Part shown: piece by piece, positions 2,349 to 63,990 of the stretch
How the letters are laid out: the number at the start of each line of letters is the position of its first letter
Numbering within the stretch: position 1 is the stretch's first letter
Source: Escherichia phage HildyBeyeler
Reading direction: 5' to 3' (one strand)
Sequence record: MZ501074
Length of the DNA: 64,000 nucleotides
Position numbers and translations under genes: made by a program
The notes under the pieces: model-generated
What the model was told of the DNA's origin: nothing
Databases searched by the model: none
Seen by the model: the letters and a program-made list of their open reading frames with translations, nothing else

Positions 2349-2357
2349 TGTGCCACC

Positions 2358-2786: not shown

Positions 2787-2788
2787 AT

Positions 2789-5021: not shown

Positions 5022-5120
5022 ATCTTTCTCCTCTCAAATTTATAAATCTATTATACATAAATTTTTAGCTGAAAGCAAATAAAATAAAAGCCAGGTCGAC
5101 TAGCAACCCGGCTGATTAGC

Positions 5121-6947: not shown

Positions 6948-7137
6948 TGATTATTTCCTCAATAAACTTTATAGCTACTTTTGGTTCAATATTGAAGAAT
7001 TCCGTAGCGCCGTCAAAATCTTTGTACTGGCAATTCTGCTCTTTAAAGTAGTTATGGGCTAATTTTTCTATTCGAACTGCACTACTATATTCTCCAATTT
7101 CAAATACTTTAATTTTTTCGGCATTACTCTTCTCCAC
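6934..7137 (-). CDS. hypothetical protein
   Basis: ORF track; first gene of leftward operon. Confidence 0.45.
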   Translation of the reverse strand: MEKSNAEKIKVFEIGEYSSAVRIEKLAHNYFKEQNCQYKDFDGATEFFNIEPKVAIKFIEEIINDRE

Positions 7138-7318
7138 AGAATTTTCACACCTATTATACTAAACATTATCCACTATGTCAATTAAAATTTTCTTTCGCCA
7201 CCTAATACTGTAATATTCCGCGTATAAATAAATGATTATCTAATACCATACATTTCCCGTTAAAAGCAAGCAAATTTTTTATTTAAATGCAATATCATAG
7301 GCTTATTTAAAATTGTAG

Positions 7319-7347
7319 TTGCTTTTTACTGCATATACTGGTATAAT
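7319..7347 (+). promoter_or_regulatory. sigma70-type promoter (TTGCTT-17-TATAAT)
   Basis: Hexamers read directly; upstream A/T tract; precedes phoH. Confidence 0.6.
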
Positions 7348-7423
7348 ATATTTGTAAGTTGATAAACAAGATCTCTTTGTTGATCCTCTGTTAGAAGCGA
7401 AGTACACTATAGGAGTGTTATGT

Positions 7424-8176
7424 ATGGGAAAAGCACGTCAAAAAAGAGAGAACCGCAATGGTTCAAGAAAGCGTGGCAACAAATATGAGAATAACGTAAT
7501 TCAGGCTGATTTTTCTAATGATTACGCTAACCCAGTTGCTAAATCCCTAGTAGGTAAAAACCGAGAGCAAAAATCATATATCAATATGATCAAGAACAAC
7601 ACAGTGACTGTGGGTATCGGTGAGCCAGGTACAGGTAAAACCTTTATCCCGTCTGTTCTTGCAGCTCAGGAACTCGTAGACATTCACTCAGATATTGAGC
7701 AAGTGATCCTCGTACGTCCTAATGAACCTCTAGGTAAGTCTCTTGGTATGCTTCCTGGTGATCTAGCAGAAAAGCTAGAGCCTTGGTTGGAGCCAATAGC
7801 TGATGGTATGAAATGGGCCATCGGTGATCATGCCTATAGGGGATACGTCGAACGTCAGAAAATTAAATTTTTGGCTATCGAACATGCTCGTGGCAGAACT
7901 TTCAACAACTCCTATGTAATTGTCGATGAAGCTCAGAATATTTCCGTTGAGGCAATGATTTGTCTCCTAACTCGTGTAGGACAAGACTGCCGTTTAATTA
8001 TCTGCGGAGATATAGCTCAGAAAGACATTAAAGGTGACTCAGGTCTAGCACTCCTTATGGAAGTCTATGAGAAATACGAAAATGCCCCCTTCTCAATGAT
8101 CGAATTGATTGATAACGTTCGTTCTGCTGAGTCTAAAGCATTCTACGATATTTTTAAAGACATGGGGAAGGTGTAA
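7424..8176 (+). CDS. phoH: PhoH-like ATPase
   Basis: Walker A GEPGTGKTF and VDEAQN; ATG 7424 with AGGAG 8 nt upstream (track start 7415 is GTG). Confidence 0.8.
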   Translation: MGKARQKRENRNGSRKRGNKYENNVIQADFSNDYANPVAKSLVGKNREQKSYINMIKNNTVTVGIGEPGTGKTFIPSVLAAQELVDIHSDIEQVILVRPNEPLGKSLGMLPGDLAEKLEPWLEPIADGMKWAIGDHAYRGYVERQKIKFLAIEHARGRTFNNSYVIVDEAQNISVEAMICLLTRVGQDCRLIICGDIAQKDIKGDSGLALLMEVYEKYENAPFSMIELIDNVRSAESKAFYDIFKDMGKV

Positions 8177-8177
8177 T

Positions 8178-8375
8178 ATGGGAGACGTTGTACATCTACA
8201 CCGAAAAACTAAAATACATCGTACTTCACTGAGTGCTGCTAATATGATTACACGTAAGGAAGGGGAAGAAAGTCCTAAGACTACCCTAGCGTGGAAAATT
8301 GTAACCTCAAATCCAAATCGGCCCTTCAATTATAACGAACTAAGTACCTCAATAGATATTCTGCTGAGAACTTAA
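8178..8375 (+). CDS. hypothetical small protein
   Basis: ATG directly after phoH stop; in frame with track ORF 8109-8375. Confidence 0.3.
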   Translation: MGDVVHLHRKTKIHRTSLSAANMITRKEGEESPKTTLAWKIVTSNPNRPFNYNELSTSIDILLRT

Positions 8376-8519
8376 GTGGCCAAAAACTAGACTGACAACA
8401 CAGAAGGCCTGGGTATGAAAGTACTCGGGCCTTTTCTATCAGAAAATTTTATTTGCCAAATGACTGAGAATAAAGTAAACTATTTCCTAAATCCTGATAA
8501 CTATAAAAAGGAAAGCCAA

Positions 8520-49414: not shown

Positions 49415-49767
49415 AATCTCATAGATTAAAAACATCAACTTGTTTTTACCTCTAGGCCGTAGATTTACATCATTCCTCGTAGGAAAACACTTGATGACGG
49501 TTCTGTTCGCAGGTTCTCGTCAATTGTTCTTCCTCCCCGAGACTCAGGAGGATGTATCAAATCGCACGCGCCTAGAGGGGCTAACTCTCATGAAATGGGG
49601 GTATATTAACTTTTAAATAACTGATAAATATTTAAAGGCAATATCTGTGTTCAAGATGATACACCTGTTGCCGCTCATCTGCTAGGATGGCACAACACTT
49701 TCTTCTAGACTCCTAAGTTTCTAGGAAATTGATAAGCACAAATTCTAGAGATCGCACAAAAATATTC

Positions 49768-50546
49768 ATCGGATTTGCACATATTCTAGGAAATTGATAA
49801 GTACAAAAATATTCATCGGATTTGCACATATTCTAGGGCAGTTTCTCTCAAACGTTACACATACTAGGCGGTTAATATAGGGCGGTTATAGGGAGGGCGG
49901 TTATTTCTAGGAGACATTTTTTGAAAACACATTTCTGGATTTTACTGTCGGATTTGCACACTGCATTTCTAGAAATTTATGGTCGGATTTGCACAAACGC
50001 CTAAGTTTTTAGGAACATATAATCTCTTGAAAATGGCAGCATTATTTCGGGCCGAAGGCCCATGATTGCCTGAGTTTTTAGAGCCACAGGAATTTTCACT
50101 TGTCAAGCTATTTTGCCCCATTTTGCTAATAAAATTTTACTTTTTCTGCACCTATCTCAAATTTCCCCAAATTATCTCAACTCTTCCCCAAAACCCCGCA
50201 AATCAGGTGCTCCGCACCAATCCTGCGCCCACACCATTCTAGCCTCCCAAATTTCTCTCGCTCTCTCATCTTCTCCTCAAACCTATACAATCACACACCC
50301 TCTCATCGAAGTCACAAAAATTTCATCGGATTCGCACAAATAAACCCATGTCGGATTTGCACATATTCTAGCTAATTCCACAGGATTGATGCGCAGCATC
50401 GGATTGCTGGAGTTTTTGGGAAAATTCGTCGTCGGATTCGCACATCACAAAAGTTTTTAGGGTCGGATTTGCACACTACCAAAAATTGTCGGATTCGCAC
50501 ATACACGCCCGCACGTAACACCCGTGGAGCAATGTCGGATTTGCAC
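49768..50546 (+). repeat. ten direct copies of 13-bp iteron TCGGATT(T/C)GCACA
   Basis: Copies start at 49768, 49815, 49947, 49982, 50325, 50350, 50431, 50462, 50488, 50534, all same orientation. Confidence 0.85.
49866..49902 (+). repeat. three direct copies of GGCGGTTA at 14-15 bp spacing
   Basis: Copies at 49866, 49880, 49895. Confidence 0.7.
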
Positions 50547-50575
50547 AAAAGCGCAGGGCAATTGCCCTGCGACTT

Positions 50576-50800
50576 TGAATGAGAATCATTATCATTTAAG
50601 AAGTGGAATGCAAATGATAATTATTCTCATTTAAGAAGTGGAATGATTCTCATTTAATAAGTGGAATGCAAATGATAATTATTCTCATTTAAGAAGTGGA
50701 ATGAGAACTATTCAAGAAGTGAAACGATTCTCATTAAAGAAGCGAAACGATTCTCATCCTAGAAAGGGAATGCAAATGATAATGATTCTCATTTAAAAAC
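50576..50800 (+). repeat. tandem array of about 24-bp units (GATTCTCATTTAAGAAGTGGAATG and variants)
   Basis: About eight degenerate contiguous units read directly. Confidence 0.8.
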
Positions 50801-50822
50801 GGAAGTGAGAAACACTGTTATT

Positions 50823-50936
50823 TAAGTTATCCACAGACTTATTAACAGCACGATTTGACTTGACAGAATCCTAGCCATTTTGAGGCGTTATCCACAGACT
50901 TATCCACAGCTTATTCTACTGTATAAATATACAGTA
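50823..50936 (+). promoter_or_regulatory. left inverted repeat with three perfect DnaA boxes and 20-bp palindrome
   Basis: TTATCCACA at 50827, 50888, 50900; TACTGTATAAATATACAGTA at 50917-50936. Confidence 0.8.
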
Positions 50937-51191
50937 TTCCTACGCAGTGAATAATTCTAATATAGGCCTAAAACGTCCTGAATCGCATTCTAGCGCGTTT
51001 TATTTTGGCGGGGATACTAAAACAAGGGCAAAACTGGAGGAGGCTTAGAAATTAGTTAGCTCGCTAACGATCACACAAGGCGACACGTAACACCCTAATC
51101 ATTAGCAGGCTAACCATCGCGGGCGCGGTCAAATGAGAATCATTCTCATTTGAGGATTGGGGGCACTTCCTGATAATTGCCCCCGTGATTA

Positions 51192-51386
51192 TTAGTCCGG
51201 TAATTGATGCGTGATCTTCTCCTCTTCCCCGTAGGAATCGACTAAATGCTGATAATAACCATCATGATCATAAATGACTTTATCATATTCGCCCAGCTCG
51301 ACCGCTTGCCGGTTTTCCGGAGTATCGGGCACATAAAAAACGTCAACCATTGTGGTAGTTTTGGTCACAATAATTTTATCGCTCAT
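51192..51386 (-). CDS. hypothetical protein
   Basis: ORF track; last gene of leftward operon. Confidence 0.4.
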   Translation of the reverse strand: MSDKIIVTKTTTMVDVFYVPDTPENRQAVELGEYDKVIYDHDGYYQHLVDSYGEEEKITHQLPD

Positions 51387-51401
51387 AATAACGCCCCGTT
51401 A

Positions 51402-51683
51402 TTAGTTGACTATCTCAAAGATAGCGTTCTCAAGTGTCGCCCTTAGGATCCCATCGCGCCCTACTACGGAATACTTGAGATCAGGTATTTTGTAACGCTC
51501 AATTGCTTTGAGTAATTGATCTTTTTGGGCTTTATATTTTTGCCCTTCTCGCGCTATCGTGTCGCCTTCGGCTTTAATGCAAATCAGTGTAACCATAATA
51601 ATCCCCCTAGTAAATATATTTTTGCCAATAGCGGCGAACGTTATCGCCACCAGCGGAATCATTAGCTGCCTTACTATTACCAA
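51402..51683 (-). CDS. hypothetical protein (start uncertain)
   Basis: ORF track; possible internal start at MVTLICIK. Confidence 0.4.
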   Translation of the reverse strand: MVIVRQLMIPLVAITFAAIGKNIFTRGIIMVTLICIKAEGDTIAREGQKYKAQKDQLLKAIERYKIPDLKYSVVGRDGILRATLENAIFEIVN

Positions 51684-51707
51684 CGAAAATATATAATCTC
51701 ATTAGTA

Positions 51708-51869
51708 TTATTTTCCCCGCATTAATTTATACATAACTAACATCCCGCAAAACTGACCTAAGATAGTGCAGACAACAAGGGATAACACAATATTGCCTAT
51801 GGTGTTATAAGTAACCACACCAACAATAAGGGATAATGCATACCCTAGCAGGGCAATATAAACAGCCAT
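51708..51869 (-). CDS. hypothetical mini membrane protein (53 aa)
   Basis: Hand translation MAVYIALLGYALSLIVGVV...; not in ORF track. Confidence 0.35.
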   Translation of the reverse strand: MAVYIALLGYALSLIVGVVTYNTIGNIVLSLVVCTILGQFCGMLVMYKLMRGK

Positions 51870-51878
51870 ATTATTTAC

Positions 51879-52214
51879 CTATTTTCGAAACGCTGTTTCA
51901 ATACTATCAGCCGTGGATTGAATATACGCGCCTTTCATTATCAGGCGCTCGGTGCATACTTTGCGAAAAATATTAATAAAATCATCTTCATTTTCTGCGA
52001 TTAACGCCTCCCCCATGACCTGAATATCACACGATGCAAAGGTCAAAAATTGAAACGCTAGTTCACGGGCGACGACCGCATTAATTTTATAATGCGCCTT
52101 TCCATCGTAAATATTAACAACGCCCTTATATTCAGGCGAAAGCTGATTTAAGTAGTTTGCTAATAATCCCGGGCGGCAATTAGTAACAAAGCGATTCCCT
52201 TCATAAATTACCAT
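51879..52214 (-). CDS. hypothetical protein
   Basis: ATG 52214 (MVIYEGNRF) preceded by GGGAGG; track ORF 51879-52229. Confidence 0.45.
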   Translation of the reverse strand: MVIYEGNRFVTNCRPGLLANYLNQLSPEYKGVVNIYDGKAHYKINAVVARELAFQFLTFASCDIQVMGEALIAENEDDFINIFRKVCTERLIMKGAYIQSTADSIETAFRK

Positions 52215-52215
52215 T

Positions 52216-52341
52216 TTATAACCTCCCAATCAGATAGCCAGATAAAAGCATAAAAATCCCCAGCGAACTAGGGTCATTCTTAAACAAGGTGGCGGTAAAA
52301 CCGCCAACCATTGCAAGGATAACAACAATAACGCTTTTCAT
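52216..52341 (-). CDS. hypothetical mini membrane protein (41 aa)
   Basis: Hand translation MKSVIVVILAMVGGFTATLF...; ATGA-coupled to upstream gene; not in ORF track. Confidence 0.35.
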   Translation of the reverse strand: MKSVIVVILAMVGGFTATLFKNDPSSLGIFMLLSGYLIGRL

Positions 52342-52550
52342 AGTACCCCACGAAACGCAGCGTAAAAGGTGGCAAAGTGTCTAACCGTTTCAGCTATCAC
52401 GTTGCCGCGCTTATCGAATTTTTTCTCGGTAACACGAAAGGCGTTTTTATTCCGTGCTACATATTCGATTTTACAATCTTCCCGCTCGAACGTGTTAACG
52501 TCCACCAGCTTAAAGCCTTTGGAACGAGCAAGGGAAACATTACGAATCAT
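52338..52550 (-). CDS. hypothetical protein
   Basis: ORF track. Confidence 0.4.
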   Translation of the reverse strand: MIRNVSLARSKGFKLVDVNTFEREDCKIEYVARNKNAFRVTEKKFDKRGNVIAETVRHFATFYAAFRGVL

Positions 52551-52552
52551 TT

Positions 52553-52741
52553 TTATTCTCCTTTACTATTCATGCAGCCCAGCAGATAAGAAAATACAGC
52601 GACACCCGCGCCAATAATAACCATAGGTTTAGTATTTGCTAAACTGCAATAAGAATCCTGAATACCATAAGCGGTGGCGAAAAGAGTCAAAATAGCGCCC
52701 AAGATACCTGCTAAAAAAGCCCGAAAAATAACCATTTTCAT
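52553..52741 (-). CDS. hypothetical two-helix membrane protein
   Basis: ORF track; two hydrophobic stretches. Confidence 0.4.
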   Translation of the reverse strand: MKMVIFRAFLAGILGAILTLFATAYGIQDSYCSLANTKPMVIIGAGVAVFSYLLGCMNSKGE

Positions 52742-52781
52742 TCTCCTAGTTAGTGGGGCGAAAGTAGCGCCCCGTTATTAC

Positions 52782-53012
52782 TTACATTAAAACGATTTTG
52801 GCGGCTTGTTTTTTGGTGCAATGTTCTGCTTTCAGGGTATCCAGCAAAAAGCCCGCCGTTTGCTGATCGATTTGATCATTATCATAAAGCGCCTGAATGG
52901 TAGTGTAAGTTTTAGCAATGCCGTATTCTTGCACCATTTCTTGAATGATCCAGCGATTTGATACCCAGCCTTTTCCAGTGAAAAGATGACTAGCAGAAGA
53001 ATAAGCAACCAT
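52782..53012 (-). CDS. hypothetical protein
   Basis: ORF track. Confidence 0.4.
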   Translation of the reverse strand: MVAYSSASHLFTGKGWVSNRWIIQEMVQEYGIAKTYTTIQALYDNDQIDQQTAGFLLDTLKAEHCTKKQAAKIVLM

Positions 53013-53130
53013 TATAAGCCTCCAAAATTTTTTGGGAAATTTTCAACCGTCCTCAAACGGTGTAAGGGCATTATAACAAAAAGGCCGCCATAATCGGCGA
53101 CCTTTACAAAACTTTACATTAGATTATTTA

Positions 53131-54123
53131 TTACTCGTTTTCGGTGTTAGTGGTAAAAGTAGAAATATCGATACCTTTTACCATTTCATCAATCATCTCA
53201 GCGATGTTAAAACTTTGCACCATTTCCAACATTGCCGCTTCCATAGCCGCTCCTGCTACCGCTTTCGCTTTCTGGTTATTCGGGGCGTACTGGTCAACCG
53301 CTACACTCAGCAGGTTAGCGATCACTACTCGACCGATCGGCGTATCAATATAGCCTTTAATCATAAATGGCGCTTTTTTAGCCGCTACTTTCGTGATTTG
53401 AGTTAGTGCAATTTTACCCGCTTCCAGTTTTGCAGCATTTACAACAGCGGATTTATTAGCGGCAACGATGTTAGCGATCTTAGTCATGGTATTTTTTCCT
53501 TTGTTTTCAGTGGTTTGAGTGTTAACGCTTTGAGTGTTAGAATTTACAGCATGTTTTTCTATATTGTCAATAGGCTGATCTTCATCTTTCCAGAAAGAAA
53601 AGCCCGCGCTTTCTATATCCCCATCGTATACGTATGGGTATACTTCCGACGGTAGCAAAAAATTGCCATCATCATCAAAGGCCATTACAGCCGCCAGACG
53701 ATACCCGTCACCGATTGACCGATTCCAGCCAACTGATAAATAACGCCAAAATGAATCAAGAAAGTTTTCAACGTCATAAAGATCCTTATCATAAGGCTCA
53801 TAATTTTCTATTGAAAAAACTTCTAAGCCCGCCCCAGCATCATAGGCTTTTACTGTGCTACCTTTTACGATTATGAAATCAGTGTCCGGCCCCCTACTAG
53901 TAAGCAGGTGATTATCCCTATTATATAAGATAATAGTTGCCCCTTGCTTATATAATGGTAGAAAACTACTCATATCATAGGCGTCGAAATCATCAAAAAA
54001 ATTCTGGTGAATATCTTCGGCCTTGTTAACAAAGTGCTTAATGCTGGTTGTTCTGCTACCGTCCAGCAGGTTGCGCAGCGCACCTTTTAAGACGGTTGCG
54101 TTATCTGGTTTATATAGCCTCAT
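53131..54123 (-). CDS. hypothetical two-domain protein (330 aa)
   Basis: ORF track; acidic N-terminal domain, N/T/Q-rich linker, A/K-rich C-terminal domain; no motif recognised. Confidence 0.55.
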   Translation of the reverse strand: MRLYKPDNATVLKGALRNLLDGSRTTSIKHFVNKAEDIHQNFFDDFDAYDMSSFLPLYKQGATIILYNRDNHLLTSRGPDTDFIIVKGSTVKAYDAGAGLEVFSIENYEPYDKDLYDVENFLDSFWRYLSVGWNRSIGDGYRLAAVMAFDDDGNFLLPSEVYPYVYDGDIESAGFSFWKDEDQPIDNIEKHAVNSNTQSVNTQTTENKGKNTMTKIANIVAANKSAVVNAAKLEAGKIALTQITKVAAKKAPFMIKGYIDTPIGRVVIANLLSVAVDQYAPNNQKAKAVAGAAMEAAMLEMVQSFNIAEMIDEMVKGIDISTFTTNTENE

Positions 54124-54389
54124 TTGTTGGCCTCCCTCGTTAATCGGTGAGTGAATGATAAAGGCAATTTTCTAGCATAGGCAAATATTATTTTACCTTT
54201 TTATTTTCCTTGCCTAGCGCCTAGTTTTATGCTAACCGCGCAGCGGTACAGTAAAGAGCAAAACACGGTGAAGCCACCAGGCCGACGCGTTGAGGCTTTA
54301 CTTTAATATTACCCCACTGCGTTTAGCTCGTTAGAAAGCGATTTAGGCCGCTTAAAATTGATTGCAGTTGTTAACACTACCTTTTTACC

Positions 54390-54497
54390 CTGTATATTTA
54401 TACAGTAGGATAACCTGTGGATAAGTCTGTGGATAAGCCCTTATATCGCCGCCTATTGTGTCAAATCATTTTGTGCTGTGATTAAGTCTGTGGATAA
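54390..54497 (-). promoter_or_regulatory. right inverted repeat with three DnaA boxes (reverse orientation) and palindrome
   Basis: TGTGGATAA at 54416, 54428, 54489; CTGTATATTTATACAG at 54390-54405; mirrors 50823-50936. Confidence 0.8.
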
Positions 54498-54538
54498 CTT
54501 AAATGATAGTTTTTCTCACTTAGGCCGATAGTTTCTTA

Positions 54539-54580
54539 TAGTGATTATTTTTATAGTGATTATTTTTATAGTTATTATTT
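54539..54580 (+). repeat. tandem 15-bp AT-rich repeats (ATAGTGATTATTTTT)
   Basis: Two perfect units plus one degenerate, read directly. Confidence 0.6.
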
Positions 54581-55247
54581 CTCATTAATTTATATGTATA
54601 TTATATAATATGAAATAGTTAGTTGGCTAATGAGATTTTACGGGATTAGTAGTCTGCTAATGGTTCAGGCTGTTACAATCCACCAGCACGATTATCATTC
54701 TAGTAATTATTAGTCTGCTATCTTTCTAATACACAACAACAAATAAAAGTCAATTAATTAATTTTATAAAATAACTCATTTAGTCTTGATTTTTAAAAGT
54801 CAATACCTTTTACAACTATTTTTCAATTTTGCTTTTATTAAATATTTGTTAAGTCGAAAATAAGCCGCCTAAAACGCCCTAGAAAGCGGTAAAATTTTCA
54901 GGTATCCCATCATAAGGGGATAGCCCGTTTATCGTCACCTGATGGATTCTAGAAAAATCAAGTAGGGCAAGGCAAATATAAGTGAAAAAATTACTTGCCT
55001 ATCTGCTATGTTTTGTGGTATCCGCGCGCCCGTTTCCTTTAAACTTGGGCAATCGCCGGACACCTTGCTTTCTTTACATTTCTTTACAAAAATAAGGTTG
55101 CGCCATTTTTGGTATTTGCTATTATTTACCTCGTAGGGCGGCAATGACGAACTACACGGCGGGAAGTTTACCGCCGCGCTCTTTAAAAATTGGGTATATC
55201 TTAAAGTCTATCGGCGGCAAACTTATACATTATAAGGAATCGCAGAT

Positions 55248-55451
55248 ATGAAACAAACTTTATTGATCACTGGCAAGCCAGCTAAAAAACTGGATGGCAA
55301 TACTAGAAAGCTGTTGACAGTAGCGCAAAGATCAGTAAAATATCGATTTAAGCAGTACAAGAAAGGCCGCCAGCAAGGTCTAGAAATGATCTGGCGAAAT
55401 ATTATGATCGACCTAAAGGAAAATCATAAAAAACTGCAAAAAATTGTTTGA
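55248..55451 (+). CDS. hypothetical basic protein
   Basis: ORF track; AAGGAA RBS. Confidence 0.4.
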   Translation: MKQTLLITGKPAKKLDGNTRKLLTVAQRSVKYRFKQYKKGRQQGLEMIWRNIMIDLKENHKKLQKIV

Positions 55452-55679
55452 CAACCTAGCCGATAGGCTTTAAGATGTACCCAGTTCGATAAGAGCGATA
55501 ACTTGATACAATTTGACGGCCGGTACTTGCCATAATGTGCCCCGCCCCCTAACTGGGATATAGCGGCCCGCGTGGAGTTCTTTAAATTGATTATATTGGC
55601 AAGCGGATTTTTTCTTATTACCTGCTAGAAAGTAGCAGGTAATGCGGAACAATCCACTAAATAAACTGGAGTTTATACT

Positions 55680-55931
55680 ATGCAAAACATTACTAATGCG
55701 CCGAAAGTTGGTCAATCCGTTTTTATCCCTTTCGTTACTAAAACGGACGAGGCAACCGGAAAGGCCGAACGCATCAAAGGCGCGGCGCTTATGCCGTTTG
55801 ATGTGATTGATGCGGTATACGCTGAAACGGAACAGAGTAACAACGGGAAAACCGTTTTTAGCGTTCGCGTTAAATCCGGCGACGTTGTAAAGGTTGCCCA
55901 GCGTAACGAAAAATGGGAAGCTGTAGCGTAA
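55680..55931 (+). CDS. hypothetical protein
   Basis: ORF track; followed by CCCCCAG...CGGGGGG hairpin. Confidence 0.45.
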   Translation: MQNITNAPKVGQSVFIPFVTKTDEATGKAERIKGAALMPFDVIDAVYAETEQSNNGKTVFSVRVKSGDVVKVAQRNEKWEAVA

Positions 55932-56034
55932 TATAGTGTTAACTTTATATTCCCCCAGTAGTTCGGGGGGAATATAACGATTAACATTATGTTAATCATT
56001 TAATCCCTTAAATTAAATCGATAGGAGCTATATC

Positions 56035-56451
56035 ATGACTAACGTTAAAGCCGAAAAATCCGCAAAATTTGCTTGGAATGAAGAAAACACCCAGCAGGCG
56101 GTTACTATGTATCAGCAGTTAATTAATGAAAACGGATTAGATTTTGCAAATAGCGACGGTTTAAAAGAGATTGCGAAAGCAGTTGGCGCGGCTTCTCCCG
56201 TGTCCGTTCGGTCAAAATTGACCAGCGCGAAAGCCTATCAAAAAAGCGATAAGCCGCGCAAAGTTGGCGGCGGCAGTTCAATCCGCAAAGCGCATTACGT
56301 GCGCGTTATTGCAAAACATGCCATCGATTCCGGCATTATCAAGGACGCCGATGATCTGGCATCACTGGAAAGCGCAAAATTAGAAACGTTGGACGTCGTG
56401 GCGCAGATGTTAGGCGTTGCCGATGAAGTAAAACAAGCCGCAGGCGAATAA
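56035..56451 (+). CDS. hypothetical protein
   Basis: ORF track; GGAG RBS. Confidence 0.45.
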   Translation: MTNVKAEKSAKFAWNEENTQQAVTMYQQLINENGLDFANSDGLKEIAKAVGAASPVSVRSKLTSAKAYQKSDKPRKVGGGSSIRKAHYVRVIAKHAIDSGIIKDADDLASLESAKLETLDVVAQMLGVADEVKQAAGE

Positions 56452-56540
56452 TAGTTATATCTTGCCCCTTCTAGCGAGGGGGCAATAATATAACTGTTTA
56501 GCGATAGTTATTTTCTTCCCCTAAATCAGGAGTTTTAAAA

Positions 56541-56738
56541 ATGATCTTTTACCCTACTGAATCGCTCATTCTAGGATTATTTATTATGGCGGCCTCATTA
56601 TTGTTTGCTTATTTCCAAAATGATCTGGATTCGTATTATTTTAAGCGCAAAGCTAAATTAGCAAAGCGGTTGGGCTTACTTTGCTTAATTGCCGCCGTTG
56701 CTTGTGGTGTTAGTTCTAGCCTGATGCCGATTAGTTAA
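56541..56738 (+). CDS. hypothetical membrane protein
   Basis: ORF track; two TM helices; hairpin ATAACGCC...GGCGTTAT downstream. Confidence 0.4.
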   Translation: MIFYPTESLILGLFIMAASLLFAYFQNDLDSYYFKRKAKLAKRLGLLCLIAAVACGVSSSLMPIS

Positions 56739-56835
56739 ATATCGCAAGTTATAACGCCTATTATTTAAGGCGTTATATCTGGCAATATTGCCAATAACAA
56801 ACGTTTTTTAATCCCTTTAATGGAGTTTTATTATT

Positions 56836-58506
56836 ATGGTTATTTCCGCAGAAAAACAAACCCAGATCCTCAACCTTGCCGCTGATTTCAATTTCTATGG
56901 TAAACGTCTGCGCGCTACTAAGCTGGAAGTTTGTGACGATATTTCAAAAGCTGTTTATGATACGCCGAAACATTCCACCGCTATTTGTGACTGGTTGGAA
57001 GCAAATAAACCAGCGAAACCGAAAGCGGCGAAAGTAGCAAAAGCCATAAAAAACGATGACCGCCCTGAAGCCGCTGGAGTTATTTCTAGCACGGTGGAGC
57101 AATGGGAAGTAAAACAAGGCAAACGCTTTATCATTACATCGATTCAGAATAATACTTTCCCGCATAAAAACTTTTTGGCCGCGCTTGAACAATATGCCCA
57201 ATTTATTGGAGCTGATTTGCTGGTTAGCAAGTATATTTATAATAAAAACGGTTTTCAAAATGGGGAAGGGGCAGACGGAATCAAATATGATTCTGCATTT
57301 GACAAATATATTTGCAGCAAAAACGTGTTTTTAAATAACCGCCGCTTTGCTTTCATGGCTGAAATTAATGTTTTGCCAACCGCAGATTATCCGCTATCTG
57401 GATTTGCTGAAACTGCAACCGCGCTTAATCTGGAAGGTCTGGCAATTGGTCACGCTAAAATCACCGCCGAAAGCGTGCCAGCTTTAAAAGGTGAAGTAGT
57501 GCGCCGCATGTATTCAACCGGAACGGCAACGCTAAAAAATTACATTCAGCAGAAGGCAGGGCAAAAAGCGGAAGCGTTACATAATTTTGGTGCGCTGATT
57601 GTCGAGTTCGACGAGGACGGAGAATTTTTTGTTCGCCAGCTTGAAACGATGGACGAAAGCGGCGTTTTTTACGATTTGAATATTTGCGCCACTCCCACCG
57701 GATGCTATGAAACAACGGGGCACGTTTTAGGTTTACAGTATGGTGACATCCACGCTGAAAAATTAGATGAAGAGTGCGCCGCTGCATCATGGGGGCATGG
57801 TGATACCTATGGGCTTGTGGATATTCTCAAACCAAAATATCAATTCGTCCATGACGTGCATGATTTTACATCACGCAACCATCACAACCGCGCCTCCGGT
57901 GTATTCCTAGCAAAACAGTACGCCGCCGGACGTGATAAGGTTCTGGATGATCTTATCGATACGGGGCGCGTACTGGAAGCAATGGAGCGTGATTTCTCTC
58001 AAACAATCATTGTTGAATCGAATCACGATCTGGCGTTATCCCGCTGGCTTGATGATCGTAATGCTAACATTAAAGACGACCCAGCAAACGCGGAACTATA
58101 TCACCGCCTGAATGCCGCGATTTACGGAGCTATCGCAGAAAAAGACGAAACCTTCAACGTGCTTGATTATGCGTTGCGCAAGGTTGCAGGTTGCGAGTTT
58201 AACGCCATTTTCCTAACGACTGACCAATCTTTCAAGATTGCAGGCATTGAATGCGGCGTACACGGTCACAATGGCATTAACGGGAGTCGTGGCAATCCTA
58301 AACAGTTTAAGAAATTGGGCAAATTAAACACGGGGCATACTCATACGGCAAGCATTTACGGCGGTGTATATACCGCTGGCGTTGCTGGTAGTCTGGACAT
58401 GGGTTACAACGTTGGCGCGTCAAGCTGGACGCAAACGCATATTATTACCTATGTAAACGGTCAGCGCACTTTGATTGACTTTAAGAATGGTAAATTTTTC
58501 GCATAA
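56836..58506 (+). CDS. A1: A1-like pre-early protein, metallophosphoesterase-type nuclease
   Basis: 556 aa; GDIH, ESNHD and GVHGHNG phosphoesterase motifs; size and context recalled to match T5 A1. Confidence 0.5.
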   Translation: MVISAEKQTQILNLAADFNFYGKRLRATKLEVCDDISKAVYDTPKHSTAICDWLEANKPAKPKAAKVAKAIKNDDRPEAAGVISSTVEQWEVKQGKRFIITSIQNNTFPHKNFLAALEQYAQFIGADLLVSKYIYNKNGFQNGEGADGIKYDSAFDKYICSKNVFLNNRRFAFMAEINVLPTADYPLSGFAETATALNLEGLAIGHAKITAESVPALKGEVVRRMYSTGTATLKNYIQQKAGQKAEALHNFGALIVEFDEDGEFFVRQLETMDESGVFYDLNICATPTGCYETTGHVLGLQYGDIHAEKLDEECAAASWGHGDTYGLVDILKPKYQFVHDVHDFTSRNHHNRASGVFLAKQYAAGRDKVLDDLIDTGRVLEAMERDFSQTIIVESNHDLALSRWLDDRNANIKDDPANAELYHRLNAAIYGAIAEKDETFNVLDYALRKVAGCEFNAIFLTTDQSFKIAGIECGVHGHNGINGSRGNPKQFKKLGKLNTGHTHTASIYGGVYTAGVAGSLDMGYNVGASSWTQTHIITYVNGQRTLIDFKNGKFFA

Positions 58507-58561
58507 TTAAATTATTCCCTAGCGGCTTGAAATATAGCCGCTATTACAGGAGCCACAAAAA

Positions 58562-58852
58562 ATGAAAATTAATTTACCTAGCAATGAATTTTCCCCTAAA
58601 ACTTCTTTACTAGATGATATTTCTTATCAAGATGCTTATATAAATGAGGAAGTATATCGCGCTTGTTCTGACCTCCTAGAATATCCCGATTATCCAATCT
58701 ATAAAGGTGATTTCATTATACCCGTTTATAATGGTGTGCTAGTAGTAGGCAAAGCTGGGGTTATTGTTATAGATAGTTGTACATTGTCACAAGAAACGTT
58801 TAAAGTGCCACTAGAGTTAACTAATTATTCTCCTAGTATTACAGTACAATAA
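58562..58852 (+). CDS. hypothetical protein
   Basis: ORF track. Confidence 0.4.
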   Translation: MKINLPSNEFSPKTSLLDDISYQDAYINEEVYRACSDLLEYPDYPIYKGDFIIPVYNGVLVVGKAGVIVIDSCTLSQETFKVPLELTNYSPSITVQ

Positions 58853-58889
58853 ATTAAGTCCCTTATTAAACTAATTGGAGTTTATAAAT

Positions 58890-59282
58890 ATGAAAAAGCA
58901 AAATATCCCATTCGATCGCGCTCAGTCTTCTATCGTTCTGGTTTATTCTAATGGTGCGCGGTATCACGTCGAGGCCGGTCACGTTGTCGATGACTTAATC
59001 GAGTTTAATGACGTTTTGCAGGTTACTACTTTCGCCTATACCACGGGCAAGCTATCCAGCCGCATCAAGGCGAAAGGCGTTCACATTGACACGATGAAAC
59101 AAGAAACCATCATTATTGACGCGGTAAAATCCGGCCTAGCCTTTGCAGTTGTCGCGCCTTGCCCCGCTTGCCTTGATGATCAGCTAATGAGCGCAAAAGT
59201 ATTTACTTGTGCGGGGATTCGTTCCGATGTATCAGGTGAAGATATTAGTTTTATCGCTGATGCGCTGGCTTATGGTCTTTGA
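58890..59282 (+). CDS. A2-like pre-early protein (about 15 kDa)
   Basis: ATG 58890 after GGAG; position between A1-like and dmp-like genes. Confidence 0.35.
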   Translation: MKKQNIPFDRAQSSIVLVYSNGARYHVEAGHVVDDLIEFNDVLQVTTFAYTTGKLSSRIKAKGVHIDTMKQETIIIDAVKSGLAFAVVAPCPACLDDQLMSAKVFTCAGIRSDVSGEDISFIADALAYGL

Positions 59283-59320
59283 TAGTTGATTTATTATTGC
59301 CCGCTGATAAATAGCGGGCA

Positions 59321-60097
59321 ATGCTGGATAAACTAAATCCCTTTAATGGAGAACGTAACAAAATGAATCAAGTTAAAACGAATATTACCCGTAATTTCCC
59401 GCATGTTTCCCGCGTCATGATCTGGGATCTGGATGGCACTATCGTTAACTCATTCCATCGCGTAGCGCCTTGCTTTGATAGTGATGGTAATCTAGATCTG
59501 AATAAGTATAAAAATGAAGCGTGCAAACATGATTTAATAATGCAAGATACTTTATTGCCGCTTGTTACATATATGCGCCAATGCATGAATGACGCAAATA
59601 CTTTAAACATTATTTGTACCGCTCGACTGATGAGCAAGTCGGACTATTATTATTTGCGCAAACAAGGCTTGCGAGGGCGTGGGAATAGCAATATCCGTGT
59701 ATTTTCCCGCGATACACTGCATAAGTATTTTGAAGCTGATAAAGTTAGCGAAATATACCACAGTAAGGACGCAGTTTATAAAAGCCACTACTTTGAGTTA
59801 TTTAAGCAGTTATATCCGAACGCTGATTTCACGATGATAGACGATCATAAAGGTGTGCTAGCAGCGGCGGCATCATACGGATTTAAAACGTTGGACGCGC
59901 AAGCCGTTAACGATATTCTATCAATCGGTGTTACATTGATAGGCGAAACCTTTATCGACGAATCTCTTGAGGATGATAATGATTATCAGTTCCTAGTCGA
60001 TCGCTTGCAATTATGTTGGGAAAGTATGACCGAGGAAGAACGCGCAGAATATAGTTGCAGCCCGCAACAATATATCGAGAAACTAAAAGTTGCATAG
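59321..60097 (+). CDS. dmp: HAD-superfamily 5-prime deoxyribonucleotidase-like protein
   Basis: MIWDLDGTIVNS HAD motif I; 258 aa; pre-early context. Confidence 0.55.
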   Translation: MLDKLNPFNGERNKMNQVKTNITRNFPHVSRVMIWDLDGTIVNSFHRVAPCFDSDGNLDLNKYKNEACKHDLIMQDTLLPLVTYMRQCMNDANTLNIICTARLMSKSDYYYLRKQGLRGRGNSNIRVFSRDTLHKYFEADKVSEIYHSKDAVYKSHYFELFKQLYPNADFTMIDDHKGVLAAAASYGFKTLDAQAVNDILSIGVTLIGETFIDESLEDDNDYQFLVDRLQLCWESMTEEERAEYSCSPQQYIEKLKVA

Positions 60098-60103
60098 TAA
60101 TTA

Positions 60104-60140
60104 AAGTTGATATTGTTTCACCTTGCAATTAAAATGGTTG
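60104..60140. terminator. bidirectional terminator, perfect 14-bp hairpin
   Basis: GTTTCACCTTGCAA-TTAAAATGG-TTGCAAGGTGAAAC between convergent genes. Confidence 0.7.
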
Positions 60141-60272
60141 CAAGGTGAAACAGTTAGCATGATAATAGTAACGGGGGTGGCGGTTAGCAGACTAAGTATT
60201 TTCGCCCAGCCCACTGCACCCACCCACGCGTACGTAATCCAAAGAATTTGGCAAAAGTCATTTTAGCGCTAA

Positions 60273-60812
60273 TTACCTGTTTAATTGGGCAACGTCTGGT
60301 ATACTTCCTTTGAACATCTCCTGTATTGCAAAGTCACCATGAAATGTCCTTCTTAGTAAATTTGCATAATTTACGGCATCTTCTAATTCGCTATAGGGAA
60401 AGTACTTAGTAGTGCCCCTTATCAGCCCCTGTTTATCGTGTAATCTTACCATCCACTTCTGAAGTTCTTTATGCCATGTAACATTTAGATAGCCTGATGA
60501 TGCTCTTGAGATTCTGCCATTATGATTATTCTCTGTAATTGAAGCCTCTCTTAAATTTGACCATCTATTATTTAGTTTATTCCTATCTATGTGGTCTACA
60601 CATTCCTCTGGCCATCTATTCTCCATAATAACAAAAGCTACTTGATGTGCATAAGCTTTAAACCCTCGATACTTGAGCTGCCTATATCCCCTATTTAAAG
60701 TACCTGCTTCTTTACCCTTACGATTGCCGCTTTTCCAGGTAAAAACTCCAGTTTCGGGGTCATAAGCAAATACTTCTTGTATTTCCTGTATATTTAGATT
60801 ATTCTTCACCAT
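60273..60812 (-). CDS. HNH homing endonuclease
   Basis: HQVAFVIMENRWPEECVDHIDRN...NRWSNLREAS HNH signature. Confidence 0.65.
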   Translation of the reverse strand: MVKNNLNIQEIQEVFAYDPETGVFTWKSGNRKGKEAGTLNRGYRQLKYRGFKAYAHQVAFVIMENRWPEECVDHIDRNKLNNRWSNLREASITENNHNGRISRASSGYLNVTWHKELQKWMVRLHDKQGLIRGTTKYFPYSELEDAVNYANLLRRTFHGDFAIQEMFKGSIPDVAQLNR

Positions 60813-62202: not shown

Positions 62203-63990
62203 ATGGGTTTTTTCGCTGGAAAATATAGTGATGGTAAAACTGTATTATCACTAAACAAGGTGAATGGGGGGGATATTAATGCTCACAAAACTCCTAACGC
62301 CAATACTATATTTCATTCTGACATGCCATTTGTTCTAGTTGAGAGTACGTATGAGAGTGCGTTAAGTAGTGCTGGTAATGGGTTCTTTGTATGTCAAATG
62401 CCTTCTGATATAGCTAATTTAAAGAGCAACGACCCTGGTAGAGTTATACTAACCGCTGTTGAGATAAACGGTACACATAGAGCTTTTCTTAATGGTACTC
62501 AATCCCAGGTTGGGCAGTTCTCAGCATTTTTCGAGGATTTTGCTAGTGGTAGGGCTGGTGCTGAATTATCTGTAACATCTGCTTTTGCGATCGGTGATAG
62601 TTTAGCACACGGTACTTATACTTATAACTCTGGTTTAGGCCATGAGGAATCTATTGCTCGACAAGGTTCTGGGGGCAGTTTACTACAGGCCTCTGGGTTC
62701 CTGATCTATAGACCTGGTGGTGTTTCTGCTGGTGAAGCCATTTCCAGAGCCTGGAATCTTATGGGTTTTCCAGCGGGTGTCTCTACTGTTCCTTTAGATA
62801 GTAATCACGCAGATTATTGGGAGCCTAACTGGCAGGCACCTATTGGGTCTGCTGGTAGAGGTCACAATTGGTTTTATGTTTGTAACTCCAATATTCGTGG
62901 CTTTGCAGGTAAGAAAGGTGTATTACCAAATAACGTAAACGTTATTTATAAATCCCCCGCATACCCAGAAAAAATCTATGTTTGTAGAGGTTCTACCTCT
63001 AACTTAGCGAATCAAAGTGCTAAAAAAATGATTGTACAAGATAATTTTAATGTAACTCCAACTAAGGTTATTTGGTACGTATTGAATCTTAAGTACTCTA
63101 ATGGGGGTATGAGTGTTGCTAGTAATCCCTTTACTGGATCCGATATTCATATAAGTCCATCTAACTTTACTATAAAAGGTGTTAGTCTTCCAAACACTAG
63201 CTACAAATTCATTAATCAGAATGCTTTTGGTAATTTAGCGTCTAGACCTGATATGGAGTATGTTGGTAATAACGCTGCGTATACCGGAGTTTTTGGTGAT
63301 AATACTGCAAGATGTGAAATTGTAGGTTCTAATAAAGGCTCTTTATGGTCTCCAGTAGATTATGGTGGTTCTAAGTCTCAGATAAGTATTTACAAATTCT
63401 CTGCTGGTAAGCAATGGTATGTTAATTCCAACAATAATACTATAGGTAATGAGCATGGAGTTGTTTGGGGACCCTCTTCAGTACCTTTACGATTACTACC
63501 AAATAACGTAGCCAGTACTTATATAGGTGATGACATAAACCCTTCTTACCCGGGTACAGGTAACAAGTATGTAGCCTTATCCACAGTAAGTCTTGGACTA
63601 CCAAATGCAAACTCTACAGTAATCCTAACTACTGAAGTAGTTGCTGGAAATCTTAATACTGCTGGAATGCCTGTGCGTACTTACAGTGGTAGCGCTTGGC
63701 AGGTACAAGGTAGACGTAAACAAAGTTACACAGCTGGTGATGGCATATTCCATCAAATATTAACTTTACCACCCAACCATCTAGTACCATTCCATACTAC
63801 AGCTTCCTATAGCTATGCACAAACTCAGGCTAGTAGGCCTGATGATTTAACATTTACTAGAAATGGGTTTATTTATACTATTAAAAATTTGGGTAACGGT
63901 AACGTTGAGTTGGGTGTAGTTATACATGCTGCGGAAGCGGCAGCTGTTTTCTTACCAAGACTACGTGTAACAGTTCAACGCCTTACCTAA
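62203..63990 (+). CDS. receptor-binding tail protein candidate (pb5/Oad-like)
   Basis: 595 aa Gly/Asn/Ser-rich protein adjacent and divergent to llp-like gene; AGGAG RBS; no sequence motif recognised. Confidence 0.4.
   Translation: MGFFAGKYSDGKTVLSLNKVNGGDINAHKTPNANTIFHSDMPFVLVESTYESALSSAGNGFFVCQMPSDIANLKSNDPGRVILTAVEINGTHRAFLNGTQSQVGQFSAFFEDFASGRAGAELSVTSAFAIGDSLAHGTYTYNSGLGHEESIARQGSGGSLLQASGFLIYRPGGVSAGEAISRAWNLMGFPAGVSTVPLDSNHADYWEPNWQAPIGSAGRGHNWFYVCNSNIRGFAGKKGVLPNNVNVIYKSPAYPEKIYVCRGSTSNLANQSAKKMIVQDNFNVTPTKVIWYVLNLKYSNGGMSVASNPFTGSDIHISPSNFTIKGVSLPNTSYKFINQNAFGNLASRPDMEYVGNNAAYTGVFGDNTARCEIVGSNKGSLWSPVDYGGSKSQISIYKFSAGKQWYVNSNNNTIGNEHGVVWGPSSVPLRLLPNNVASTYIGDDINPSYPGTGNKYVALSTVSLGLPNANSTVILTTEVVAGNLNTAGMPVRTYSGSAWQVQGRRKQSYTAGDGIFHQILTLPPNHLVPFHTTASYSYAQTQASRPDDLTFTRNGFIYTIKNLGNGNVELGVVIHAAEAAAVFLPRLRVTVQRLT

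What the first reader, a model, noticed from the sequence alone, without database searches (positions are those of the whole stretch)
50823..54497. Inverted DnaA-box triplets bracket a 3.4-kb leftward operon of unknown genes
Two imperfect inverted repeats of about 110 bp (50823-50936 and 54390-54497) each carry three perfect DnaA boxes (TTATCCACA) and a palindrome (TACTGTATA-AA-TATACAGTA; CTGTATA-TT-TATACAG). They flank nine leftward genes with no recognisable function. Six host-initiator sites in mirror symmetry around a gene block suggests host DnaA could gate expression or DNA transfer of this block, or that it is a replication or transfer origin. No such module architecture is known to me.
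Basis: partly seen in the sequence, partly recalled or inferred. Interest (0 to 1): 0.85.

Follow-up and report, generated by a model that had tools for sequence, protein, structure and literature searches.

The report
Known T5 injection-stop DnaA-box inverted repeats
The mirrored clusters of host-initiator (DnaA) binding sites are real and strongly conserved, but they are the inverted repeats already described in the terminal repeat of T5-like phages beside the signal that pauses DNA injection, so this is a known structure.

Summary
Six perfect TTATCCACA boxes sit in two inverted arms (50803-50934 and 54390-54521, 132 nt, 83% complementary). Each arm also has one near-consensus box and a palindrome. 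The arms flank nine leftward ORFs.

The window is a T5-like phage (Demerecviridae), read in reverse relative to T5, and the region lies in the terminal repeat, which is the first-step-transfer DNA. The arms are homologues of T5 IRD'spacerIRC' (part of the annotated injection stop signal) and IRCspacerIRD. Davison (bioRxiv 10.1101/866236) described eight DnaA boxes in pairs 3 bp apart and proposed that membrane-bound DnaA stops injection. That idea is still untested.

The enclosed genes are the second pre-early operon (T5.011-017 homologues). One of them is the Ung-dependent AP-site nickase.

Both arms occur in 29 of 29 independently anchored relatives, and an arm occurs in 541 phage records. 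It occurs in no plasmid or E. coli genome. A viable T5 deletion removes one arm and the whole block, so the mirror pair is dispensable. No evidence supports a replication origin.

One possibly new point: the palindrome matches the LexA SOS-box consensus at 19/20 and is among the best-conserved parts of the arm, which the searchable literature does not mention.

Verdict: already known, low interest.

The parts
50040..60220 (.). Single collapsed copy of the direct terminal repeat (the first-step-transfer DNA), reverse-complemented relative to T5. Boundaries are approximate. A2 is at 56035-56451, A1 at 56836-58506 and dmp at 59321-60097, all on the + strand.
   Evidence: blastn maps window 49650-51040 to T5 10608-9301 and window 58848-60206 to T5 1375-15. 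The T5 LTR is annotated 1-10219. Kenya-K15 has its DTR annotated over the matching region. ORFs.
50325..50547 (+). Six copies of GTCGGATTTGCACA, the DRD repeats of the T5 iss region. Three of these six copies carry ATTTGCACA, a DnaA-like box with one mismatch, in the same orientation as the left-arm boxes. Two more ATTTGCACA lie at 49952 and 49987.
   Evidence: named in Davison 2020
50565..50811 (.). Nested direct repeats and palindromes built on AATGAGAATCATTCTCATT (the DRC/DRE/pal elements of Repeat Region 3). The T5 shear point and the major nick map to about 50600-50650.
   Evidence: T5 nick annotated at 9748; shear point
50803..50934 (.). Left arm, next to the injection stop signal. It is the homologue of T5 IRD'spacerIRC' (NC_005859 9405-9542, 92% identity).
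   Evidence: row H67 is annotated 'injection stop signal (iss)'
50827..50847 (+). Outer DnaA box pair of the left arm: TTATCCACA-gac-TTATTAACA (one perfect box, one variant).
50888..50908 (+). Inner DnaA box pair of the left arm: TTATCCACA-gac-TTATCCACA.
50917..50936 (.). Palindrome TACTGTATAAATATACAGTA, matching the LexA/SOS-box consensus TACTG(TA)5CAGTA at 19/20.
   Evidence: CTGT-N8-ACAG is kept in 28 of 30 left arms
50937..51040 (.). Weaker inward extension of the inverted repeat (GGCCTAAAACG ... GGGGATACTAAAAC).
51192..54123 (-). Second pre-early operon with nine ORFs, homologous to T5.011-T5.017. The ORFs are 53131-54123 (gp011, DUF7566), 52782-53012, 52553-52741, 52338-52550 (Ung-dependent AP-site nickase), 52216-52341, 51879-52229, 51708-51869, 51402-51683 and 51192-51386.
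54155..54216 (-). Promoter-like hexamers at the position of the experimentally characterised T5 promoter upstream of gene 011.
   Evidence: T5 promoter annotated at 6411-6489; 'one upstream of gene 011'
54300..54389 (.). Weaker inward extension of the right arm (…GTTAGAAAGCGATTTAGGCC…).
54388..54407 (.). Palindrome CCCTGTATATTTATACAGTA, matching the LexA consensus at 17/20. A promoter-like TTAACA-16-TATATT (54371-54398, + strand) overlaps it.
54390..54521 (.). Right arm, in the divergent region between the two pre-early operons. It is the homologue of T5 IRCspacerIRD (NC_005859 6098-6288, 77% identity).
54416..54436 (-). Inner DnaA box pair of the right arm: two perfect boxes, 3 bp apart.
54477..54497 (-). 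Outer DnaA box pair of the right arm: TTATCCACA plus TTAATCACA.
54533..54577 (.). Three tandem AT-rich 15-mers (TTATAGTGATTATTT) just outside the right arm.

Best explanation
**Identity (about 0.97).** These are the two conserved inverted repeats of the first-step-transfer DNA, in the terminal repeat of a T5-like Demerecviridae phage. The left arm is the homologue of T5 IRD'spacerIRC', the innermost part of the injection-stop-signal region. The right arm is the homologue of IRCspacerIRD, which lies between the two divergent pre-early operons. Between them is the variable, dispensable second pre-early operon of host-takeover genes, including the Ung-dependent nickase.

**Mechanism (inferred, not shown).** Each arm is a cis-acting platform for host DNA-binding proteins. 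It carries two pairs of DnaA boxes, 3 bp apart, of the highest-affinity R1/R4 type, followed by a LexA-type palindrome.

The genome enters from the dmp end, so in window coordinates entry runs from about 60.2 kb leftward. The right arm enters first. The left arm is the last element to enter before transfer pauses, about 150-200 bp further on.

The most likely role is that DnaA, which needs no phage protein synthesis, assembles on the iss-proximal arm and helps to hold or organise the end of the FST DNA during the pause. A1/A2 later relieve the pause. This is Davison's model. The second arm would be an accessory copy.

**Rough probabilities.** DnaA binds these sites in vivo: about 0.7. That binding contributes to the injection pause or to anchoring: about 0.35-0.4.
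For: **Identity.** The region is 88-94% identical to T5-like phages, and it lies under features annotated 'DTR' or 'left TR; comprises FST DNA'. The arms align to T5 9345-9565 (92%) and 6098-6288 (77%). The T5 match lies under the annotated iss feature.

**Prior description.** Davison 2020 describes two 131-bp inverted repeats carrying 8 DnaA/DnaA* boxes in pairs 3 bp apart. He places the shear point just beyond IRD'spacerIRC'.

**Conservation.** Both arms are present and inverted in 29 of 29 contigs that were anchored on A2, independently of the arms. The cargo between them varies, with arm spacing of 1.7-4.2 kb. An arm occurs in 541 phage records, typically at 2 places per record, or 4 when both terminal repeats are present.

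The spacers are arm-specific, while the boxes and palindrome are shared between arms. This points to selection on the motifs rather than a recent duplication.

**DnaA-like constraint.** Across 238 pooled boxes, variation is confined to positions 3 (A/T), 5 (any base) and 6 (C/A). Positions 3 and 5 are exactly the degenerate positions of TTWTNCACA.

**Deep conservation.** The core of box pair plus palindrome survives in a Vibrio Pogseptimavirus, where the flanks no longer align.
Against: - No DnaA binding or genetic test exists.
- T5 with a deletion of about 5391-9160 lacks IRCspacerIRD and the whole block and is viable, with small plaques. The pair as such is therefore not required.
- Davison reports that Type 4 relatives lack IRC/IRD entirely.
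- In relatives, the iss-proximal arm often carries non-consensus boxes such as TTATTAACA, TTATCAACA and TTATCCCCA. T5 has only 3 perfect boxes against 6 here.
- It is not obvious, on physical grounds, how a protein complex on DNA already inside the cell would stop further entry. This is my own inference.
Confidence: 0.6

Rival explanations
1. The arms act as transcriptional insulators or regulators. DnaA, and possibly LexA, bound at the arms would block or modulate RNA polymerase. The right arm would separate the two divergent pre-early operons. The left arm would stop read-through from the 011-017 operon into the iss repeats. The mirror symmetry would present the same face to polymerases leaving the block.
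For: The right arm lies in the divergent promoter region. The P011-like promoter (54216-54155) is on one side and strong promoter-like sites at 55314 and 55448 (+) are on the other. The left arm lies just downstream of the last ORF. DnaA-box complexes are known to block transcribing RNA polymerase (Schaefer and Messer, recalled from memory). A promoter-like TTAACA-16-TATATT overlaps the right palindrome and is conserved in most relatives.
Against: The boxes lie 170-230 bp upstream of the mapped operon promoter rather than over it. The promoter-like hexamers at the palindrome are not conserved in T5, L015 or L019. The promoter scan gives only 28 hits against 17.9 expected. Deleting the operon and one arm has only a mild phenotype.
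Confidence: 0.17
2. The repeats are recognised by phage proteins (A2, a DNA-binding protein, and/or A1), for example as the sites where A1/A2 act to restart transfer or to cut the DNA. On this view the resemblance to DnaA and LexA sites is incidental or is mimicry.
For: A1 and A2 are both required for second-step transfer, and A2 is annotated as DNA-binding. Palindromes suit dimeric phage proteins. Davison proposes A1/A2 cleavage at a palindrome near this position.
Against: There are exact 9/9 matches to the highest-affinity DnaA box, with variation only at the degenerate positions of the DnaA consensus. The palindrome matches the LexA consensus at 19/20. Coincidence with two different host consensus sequences is unlikely. 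The pause itself needs no phage protein synthesis (established T5 biology, from memory).
Confidence: 0.1
3. The arms are recombination substrates that bound an exchangeable or invertible cargo cassette. On this view the arms matter mainly as homology for swapping or flipping the pre-early accessory genes between co-infecting phages.
For: Cargo length (arm spacing 1.7-4.2 kb) and gene content vary between conserved arms. In Klebsiella phages L039 and L040 the enclosed operon, including a gp011 homologue at 37-38% identity, is on the opposite strand relative to A2. The centre of the palindrome flips between AAA and TTT among arms.
Against: No recombinase, integrase or transposase lies inside or beside the block. 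The arm-specific spacers are conserved across phages, so the arms are not being homogenised by frequent exchange. The arms are absent from plasmids and E. coli genomes. Recombination here is better seen as a consequence of conserved arms than as their selected function.
Confidence: 0.07
4. The arms form a DnaA-dependent replication origin or a transfer origin.
For: There is a DnaA-box cluster with three AT-rich 15-mers beside the right arm (54533-54577), which superficially resembles oriC. Davison also calls the arrangement 'reminiscent of oriC'.
Against: According to the references Davison cites, T5 origins map near the genome centre, and the replication genes are not present during the FST phase. 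Box spacing is 3 bp rather than the 2 bp of oriC arrays (from memory). The AT-rich repeats lie beside one arm only. GC skew changes only with gene orientation. One arm is deletable.
Confidence: 0.03

Closest known systems
T5 IRCspacerIRD / IRD'spacerIRC' inverted repeats (Repeat Regions 2 and 3 of the T5 left terminal repeat, part of the injection stop signal). Sources: Heusterspreute 1987 and Wang 2005 as cited by Davison, and Davison 2020 bioRxiv 10.1101/866236.
   Same: The position in the terminal repeat is the same. Sequence homology is 92% and 77%. The order of elements matches, with two box pairs 3 bp apart per arm. The neighbouring DRE/DRC/DRD repeats and the flanked 011-017 operon also match.
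   Different: There are only minor differences. This phage has 6 perfect boxes against 3 in T5. [quoted passage not shown] Two extra small ORFs are present in the operon.
Chromosomal DnaA-box clusters of E. coli (oriC, datA, DARS)
   Same: They share clustered consensus TTATCCACA boxes in a defined orientation, expected to nucleate DnaA oligomers (consensus from established knowledge; boxes).
   Different: No origin activity maps here. The boxes are in pairs 3 bp apart in two mirrored copies 3.5 kb apart. They sit on a virulent phage's terminal repeat, and no sequence match exists in E. coli genomes.
LexA operators (SOS boxes, TACTG(TA)5CAGTA) of Gammaproteobacteria
   Same: The palindromes match the consensus at 19/20 and 17/20, with CTGT-N8-ACAG intact. 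None are expected by chance.
   Different: They do not demonstrably overlap a functional promoter. They occur in a virulent phage. The right-arm copy has a broken CAG half-site in 4 of 30 relatives. LexA binding is untested.
Invertible or TIR-flanked DNA segments (for example the Mu G or P1 C segments, and transposons)
   Same: Inverted repeats flank a gene block whose orientation differs between lineages.
   Different: There is no invertase or transposase. The arms are dominated by host-protein motifs. They are confined to Demerecviridae.

Membership tests
T5-type FST inverted-repeat pair (IRCspacerIRD / IRD'spacerIRC') | Lies inside the direct terminal repeat (first-step-transfer DNA) of a Demerecviridae genome | tested here: met
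T5-type FST inverted-repeat pair (IRCspacerIRD / IRD'spacerIRC') | Sequence homology of each arm to the corresponding T5 arm | tested here: met
   92.3% over 221 bp to T5 9345-9565, and 76.7% over 197 bp to T5 6098-6288. One search, row H67.
T5-type FST inverted-repeat pair (IRCspacerIRD / IRD'spacerIRC') | Two pairs of DnaA/DnaA* boxes per arm, with pair members 3 bp apart (8 boxes in all) | tested here: met
   defined
T5-type FST inverted-repeat pair (IRCspacerIRD / IRD'spacerIRC') | One arm adjoins the iss repeat array (DRE/DRC/DRD, palindromes) and the other adjoins the divergent pre-early promoter region | tested here: met
T5-type FST inverted-repeat pair (IRCspacerIRD / IRD'spacerIRC') | Functions as (part of) the injection stop signal | not testable with these tools
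   Hypothesis only. A deletion removing one arm is viable.
DnaA-dependent replication origin (oriC type) | Cluster of DnaA boxes | tested here: met
DnaA-dependent replication origin (oriC type) | Adjacent AT-rich unwinding element | tested here: inconclusive
   Three AT-rich 15-mers at 54533-54577 lie beside the right arm only. There is no equivalent beside the left arm.
DnaA-dependent replication origin (oriC type) | Replication initiates here | not testable with these tools
   Literature cited places T5 origins near the genome centre. GC skew follows gene strand only.
LexA operator (SOS box) | CTGT-N8-ACAG palindrome close to TACTG(TA)5CAGTA | tested here: met
   19/20 and 17/20, with 0 expected by chance
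LexA operator (SOS box) | Overlaps or adjoins a promoter that it represses | tested here: inconclusive
   Promoter-like hexamers overlap both palindromes. They are weak and not conserved in T5, L015 or L019.
LexA operator (SOS box) | Bound by LexA | not testable with these tools
   none
Transposon / invertible segment | Recombinase or transposase encoded within or beside the repeats | tested here: not met
   PHROGs and Pfam scans of all nine ORFs found none
Transposon / invertible segment | Copies in unrelated replicons | tested here: not met
   No match in 72,556 plasmid records or 20,395 E. coli genome records

The most novel reading that the evidence does not exclude
Each arm is a composite platform for two host proteins rather than a DnaA-box cluster alone. 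A near-consensus LexA operator (19/20) directly abuts the inner DnaA-box pair, and a third TTATCC repeat overlaps the operator's left half. This composite is among the best-conserved parts of the arm in E. coli, Salmonella and Klebsiella T5-like phages, and the core survives in a Vibrio T5-like phage. I found no mention of LexA or SOS in Davison 2020, nor in any searchable paper on T5-like phages. If it is functional, T5-like phages would recruit both the host replication initiator and the SOS repressor to the end of the first-transferred DNA. That might couple pre-early expression, or the handling of the paused DNA end, to the state of the host DNA that A1 is destroying.
Probability: 0.2. Interest if true: 0.55.

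Novelty: already known. Interest (0 to 1): 0.2.

Why it matters
How T5 stops after injecting about 8% of its genome has been open since the 1960s, and these arms are the leading cis-acting candidates. The finding adds no new architecture to that question.

It does offer three modest additions:
- Independent confirmation, on a larger and unbiased set, that both arms are conserved with a DnaA-like substitution pattern.
- A reading of a recent T5 deletion mutant showing that the mirror pair and its cargo are dispensable. This focuses any test on the iss-proximal arm.
- The LexA-operator reading of the palindrome, which yields cheap experiments: EMSA, and infection of lexA(Def) or lexA(Ind-) hosts.

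Tried and rejected
- **Replication origin:** rejected. GC skew tracks gene orientation only. The literature places T5 origins centrally. One arm is deletable.
- **Mobile element or transfer origin:** rejected. The block has no recombinase or relaxase, and the arm is absent from plasmids and E. coli genomes.
- **Structured RNA:** no Rfam match at E <= 0.1 in 49500-56000. The right arm also lies upstream of the operon promoter, so the two arms are not on one transcript.
- **LexA cleavage as the trigger for second-step transfer:** considered and judged unlikely. T5 is generally known to grow on recA hosts such as DH5alpha (from memory, not tested), and A2 mutants degrade host DNA yet fail to complete transfer.
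- **LexA-controlled promoter at the palindromes:** inconclusive.
- **Prior mention of LexA in T5-like repeats:** the literature searches found nothing. Davison 2015, Wang 2005 and Heusterspreute 1987 were not readable here, so priority cannot be excluded.
- **Tool failures:** a script failed because L043 was not yet on disk, and two calls failed on argument limits.

Full report
**Observation.** Perfect TTATCCACA boxes lie at 50827, 50888 and 50900 on the + strand and at 54416, 54428 and 54489 on the - strand. The window holds 8 such boxes against 0.82 expected, and no shuffle reaches 8. The repeat finder reports one long inverted repeat, 50803-50934 / 54390-54521, 132 nt and 83% complementary.

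Each arm has a fourth, one-mismatch box: TTATTAACA at 50839 and TTAATCACA at 54477. So each arm carries two pairs of boxes, 3 bp apart, with the pairs 61 bp apart start to start. The palindromes are real. Weaker inverted similarity continues about 90-100 bp inward from each palindrome. Nine minus-strand ORFs fill 51192-54123.

**What the window is.** The region is 88-94% identical to many T5-like phages of Salmonella, E. coli and Shigella (Demerecviridae, Markadamsvirinae). In records that annotate it, the region lies under 'DTR' or 'left TR; comprises first-step-transfer (FST) DNA'.

Relative to T5 (NC_005859) the window is reverse-complemented. Window 49650-51040 aligns to T5 10608-9301, window 52336-54520 to T5 8300-6098, and window 58848-60206 to T5 1375-15. 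A2, A1 and dmp follow on the + strand at 56035-60097. The window therefore carries one collapsed copy of the terminal repeat, roughly 50040-60220. In virion DNA, everything described here is present twice.

**Identity of the arms.** The left arm aligns at 92% to T5 9345-9565 and the right arm at 77% to T5 6098-6288. The T5 match of the left arm lies under the annotated 'injection stop signal (iss)' feature (row H67).

Davison's preprint 'Phage T5 two-step injection' (10.1101/866236) describes exactly this structure:
- It reports eight DnaA/DnaA* boxes, 'always in pairs separated by 3 bp', in the same positions in 25 T5-like phages.
- One DnaA box was already noted in 1987.
- It notes that the variable coding region between the repeats is poorly conserved.
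- It proposes that membrane-bound DnaA binds these boxes and stops injection.

Later papers repeat this as an untested proposal.

**Surroundings.** Left of the left arm lie the other iss elements: nested AATGAGAATCATTCTCATT-type repeats and palindromes (50565-50811) and six GTCGGATTTGCACA repeats (50325-50547). The T5 major nick (9748) and the calculated shear point map to about 50600-50650.

The right arm sits in the divergent region between the two pre-early operons. Promoter-like hexamers at 54216-54155 (-) match the position of the characterised T5 promoter upstream of gene 011. Strong promoter-like sites at 55314 and 55448 (+) lie at the head of the A2-A1-dmp operon. This phage lacks T5's hegG insertion.

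**The enclosed genes.** They are homologues of T5.011-T5.017. ORF 52338-52550 is phrog_4227, 'endonuclease nicking abasic sites generated by host uracil glycosylase Ung' (E 8e-50). ORF 53131-54123 is DUF7566/gp011. The rest are small proteins of unknown function, with PHROG matches for most.

A 2026 preprint (10.64898/2026.04.02.716235) reports that T5 011, 013 and 015 are toxic in E. coli and that 13 of 17 pre-early genes are dispensable.

**Independent conservation test.** I anchored on the A2 protein, which is independent of the arms, and fetched 40 loci from 29 distinct T5-like contigs. In all 29 contigs with enough flank, both arms are present and inverted, 1.7-4.2 kb apart.

The spacer sequences are specific to each arm and conserved across phages. 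The boxes, the palindrome, GTGAGAA..ATTTAAG and a TTGACA block are shared between arms. This fits selection on the motifs rather than a recent duplication.

Across 238 pooled boxes, positions 1, 2, 4, 7, 8 and 9 are almost invariant. Variation is confined to position 3 (A/T), position 5 (any base) and position 6 (C/A). Positions 3 and 5 are exactly the degenerate positions of the DnaA consensus TT(A/T)TNCACA. These counts are of related sequences, not of independent events.

The arm is found in 541 phage records, at 2 places per record or 4 when both terminal repeats are present. It is found in no plasmid or E. coli genome record. In a Vibrio Pogseptimavirus only the core survives, cTTATCCACAcggTTATCCACAgcttataCCACTGTATAAATAAACAGTA, and a second, inverted cluster of DnaA-like boxes lies 2.8 kb away.

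This phage is unusual only in having six perfect boxes. T5 has three.

**Evidence on function.** The deletion primers of the T5 'hegG to 017' mutant map to NC_005859 5361-5390 and 9161-9186. The deletion therefore removes IRCspacerIRD, the 011 promoter and all of 011-017, and keeps the iss-proximal arm. Combined with other deletions, the phage is viable with smaller plaques.

So the mirror-image pair and the block are dispensable in the laboratory. According to Davison, Type 4 relatives lack IRC/IRD entirely. Any essential role therefore belongs to the iss-proximal arm.

Nothing supports an origin: the GC skew follows gene strand, and T5 origins map centrally according to the references Davison cites. 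No Rfam family matches.

**Most likely mechanism.** The structure and conservation are shown. The mechanism is inferred. The arms are platforms for host proteins that are already present when the DNA arrives. The left arm is the last element to enter before transfer pauses about 150-200 bp further on.

I consider DnaA binding likely (about 0.7), because these are R1/R4-type consensus boxes with a DnaA-like substitution pattern. I consider a contribution to the pause or to anchoring plausible but unproven (about 0.35-0.4).

The rival explanations are:
- Transcriptional insulation or regulation (0.17).
- Recognition by phage A2/A1 (0.10).
- Recombination boundaries of an exchangeable or invertible cargo (0.07).
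- A replication origin (0.03).

**A possibly new detail.** The palindrome is not just a palindrome. TACTGTATAAATATACAGTA matches the Gammaproteobacterial LexA operator consensus TACTG(TA)5CAGTA at 19/20, and the right-arm copy matches at 17/20. No such match is expected by chance in the window.

It is among the best-conserved stretches of the arms. CTGT-N8-ACAG is intact in 28 of 30 left arms and 25 of 30 right arms. The centre flips between AAA and TTT, as expected for a symmetric site or for exchange between inverted copies. It directly abuts the inner DnaA pair, and a third TTATCC repeat overlaps its left half.

Davison 2020 never mentions LexA or SOS. Library searches for LexA with T5, T5-like or Tequintavirus, and for the sequence itself, found nothing relevant. 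The older subscription papers could not be read. Whether a LexA-controlled promoter exists there is inconclusive.

**Verdict.** The claimed novelty is not supported. The structure is already known, and interest is low, apart from the LexA-operator reading and the deletion-mutant inference, which sharpen the experiments that could settle the injection-stop question.

Noticed in passing
window 50917-50936 and 54388-54407: The arm palindromes match the LexA SOS-box consensus at 19/20 and 17/20. They are among the most conserved parts of the arms across 30 phages. No paper I could search mentions this.
   Followed up: partly
L039 4860-8005 and L040 (Klebsiella T5-like phages), compared with window 51192-54123: The operon between the arms is on the opposite strand relative to A2 in the Klebsiella lineage, and it includes a gp011 homologue at 37-38% identity. 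The segment between the inverted repeats has therefore been inverted, or replaced in reverse, during evolution. [quoted passage not shown]
   Followed up: partly
window 49952-50547: ATTTGCACA is one mismatch from the relaxed DnaA consensus. It occurs five times here: three inside the GTCGGATTTGCACA (DRD) repeats and two further left at 49952 and 49987. All have the same orientation as the left-arm boxes. The 50500-50999 bin has the highest density of DnaA-like 9-mers in the window (8, against a mean of 1.2 per 500 bp).
   Followed up: partly
window 54533-54577: Three tandem AT-rich 15-mers (TTATAGTGATTATTT, 96% matches) lie immediately outside the right arm. They superficially resemble an origin unwinding element. 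There is no counterpart beside the left arm.
   Followed up: no
window 50575-50811, 51131-51152, and the outer edges of both arms (GTGAGAA): A family of AATGAGAATCATTCTCATT-type palindromes is scattered around the left arm. A conserved half-site lies at the outer edge of both arms. These are candidate sites for another dimeric DNA-binding protein.
   Followed up: no
window 55177-55215 / 55459-55497: A separate 39-nt inverted repeat (82% complementary) brackets the strong promoter-like sites at the head of the A2-A1-dmp operon. It is probably IRA/IRA' of T5 Repeat Region 1.
   Followed up: no
window ~60200-60300: The T5 left end maps to about 60220, and the sequence then continues into tail and receptor-binding genes (ORF 62203-63990). 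The source record is therefore a circularly collapsed assembly with one terminal-repeat copy.
   Followed up: partly
window 42849 and 63577 (also 63671): Two further perfect TTATCCACA boxes lie outside the arms. One is about 90 bp from a CTGT-N8-ACAG match inside the 595-aa ORF. This is probably chance.
   Followed up: no
L001 (T5) 5361-5390 and 9161-9186: The primers of the published T5 hegG-017 deletion map so that the deletion removes the IRCspacerIRD arm. That paper does not discuss this consequence in the passages I retrieved.
   Followed up: yes
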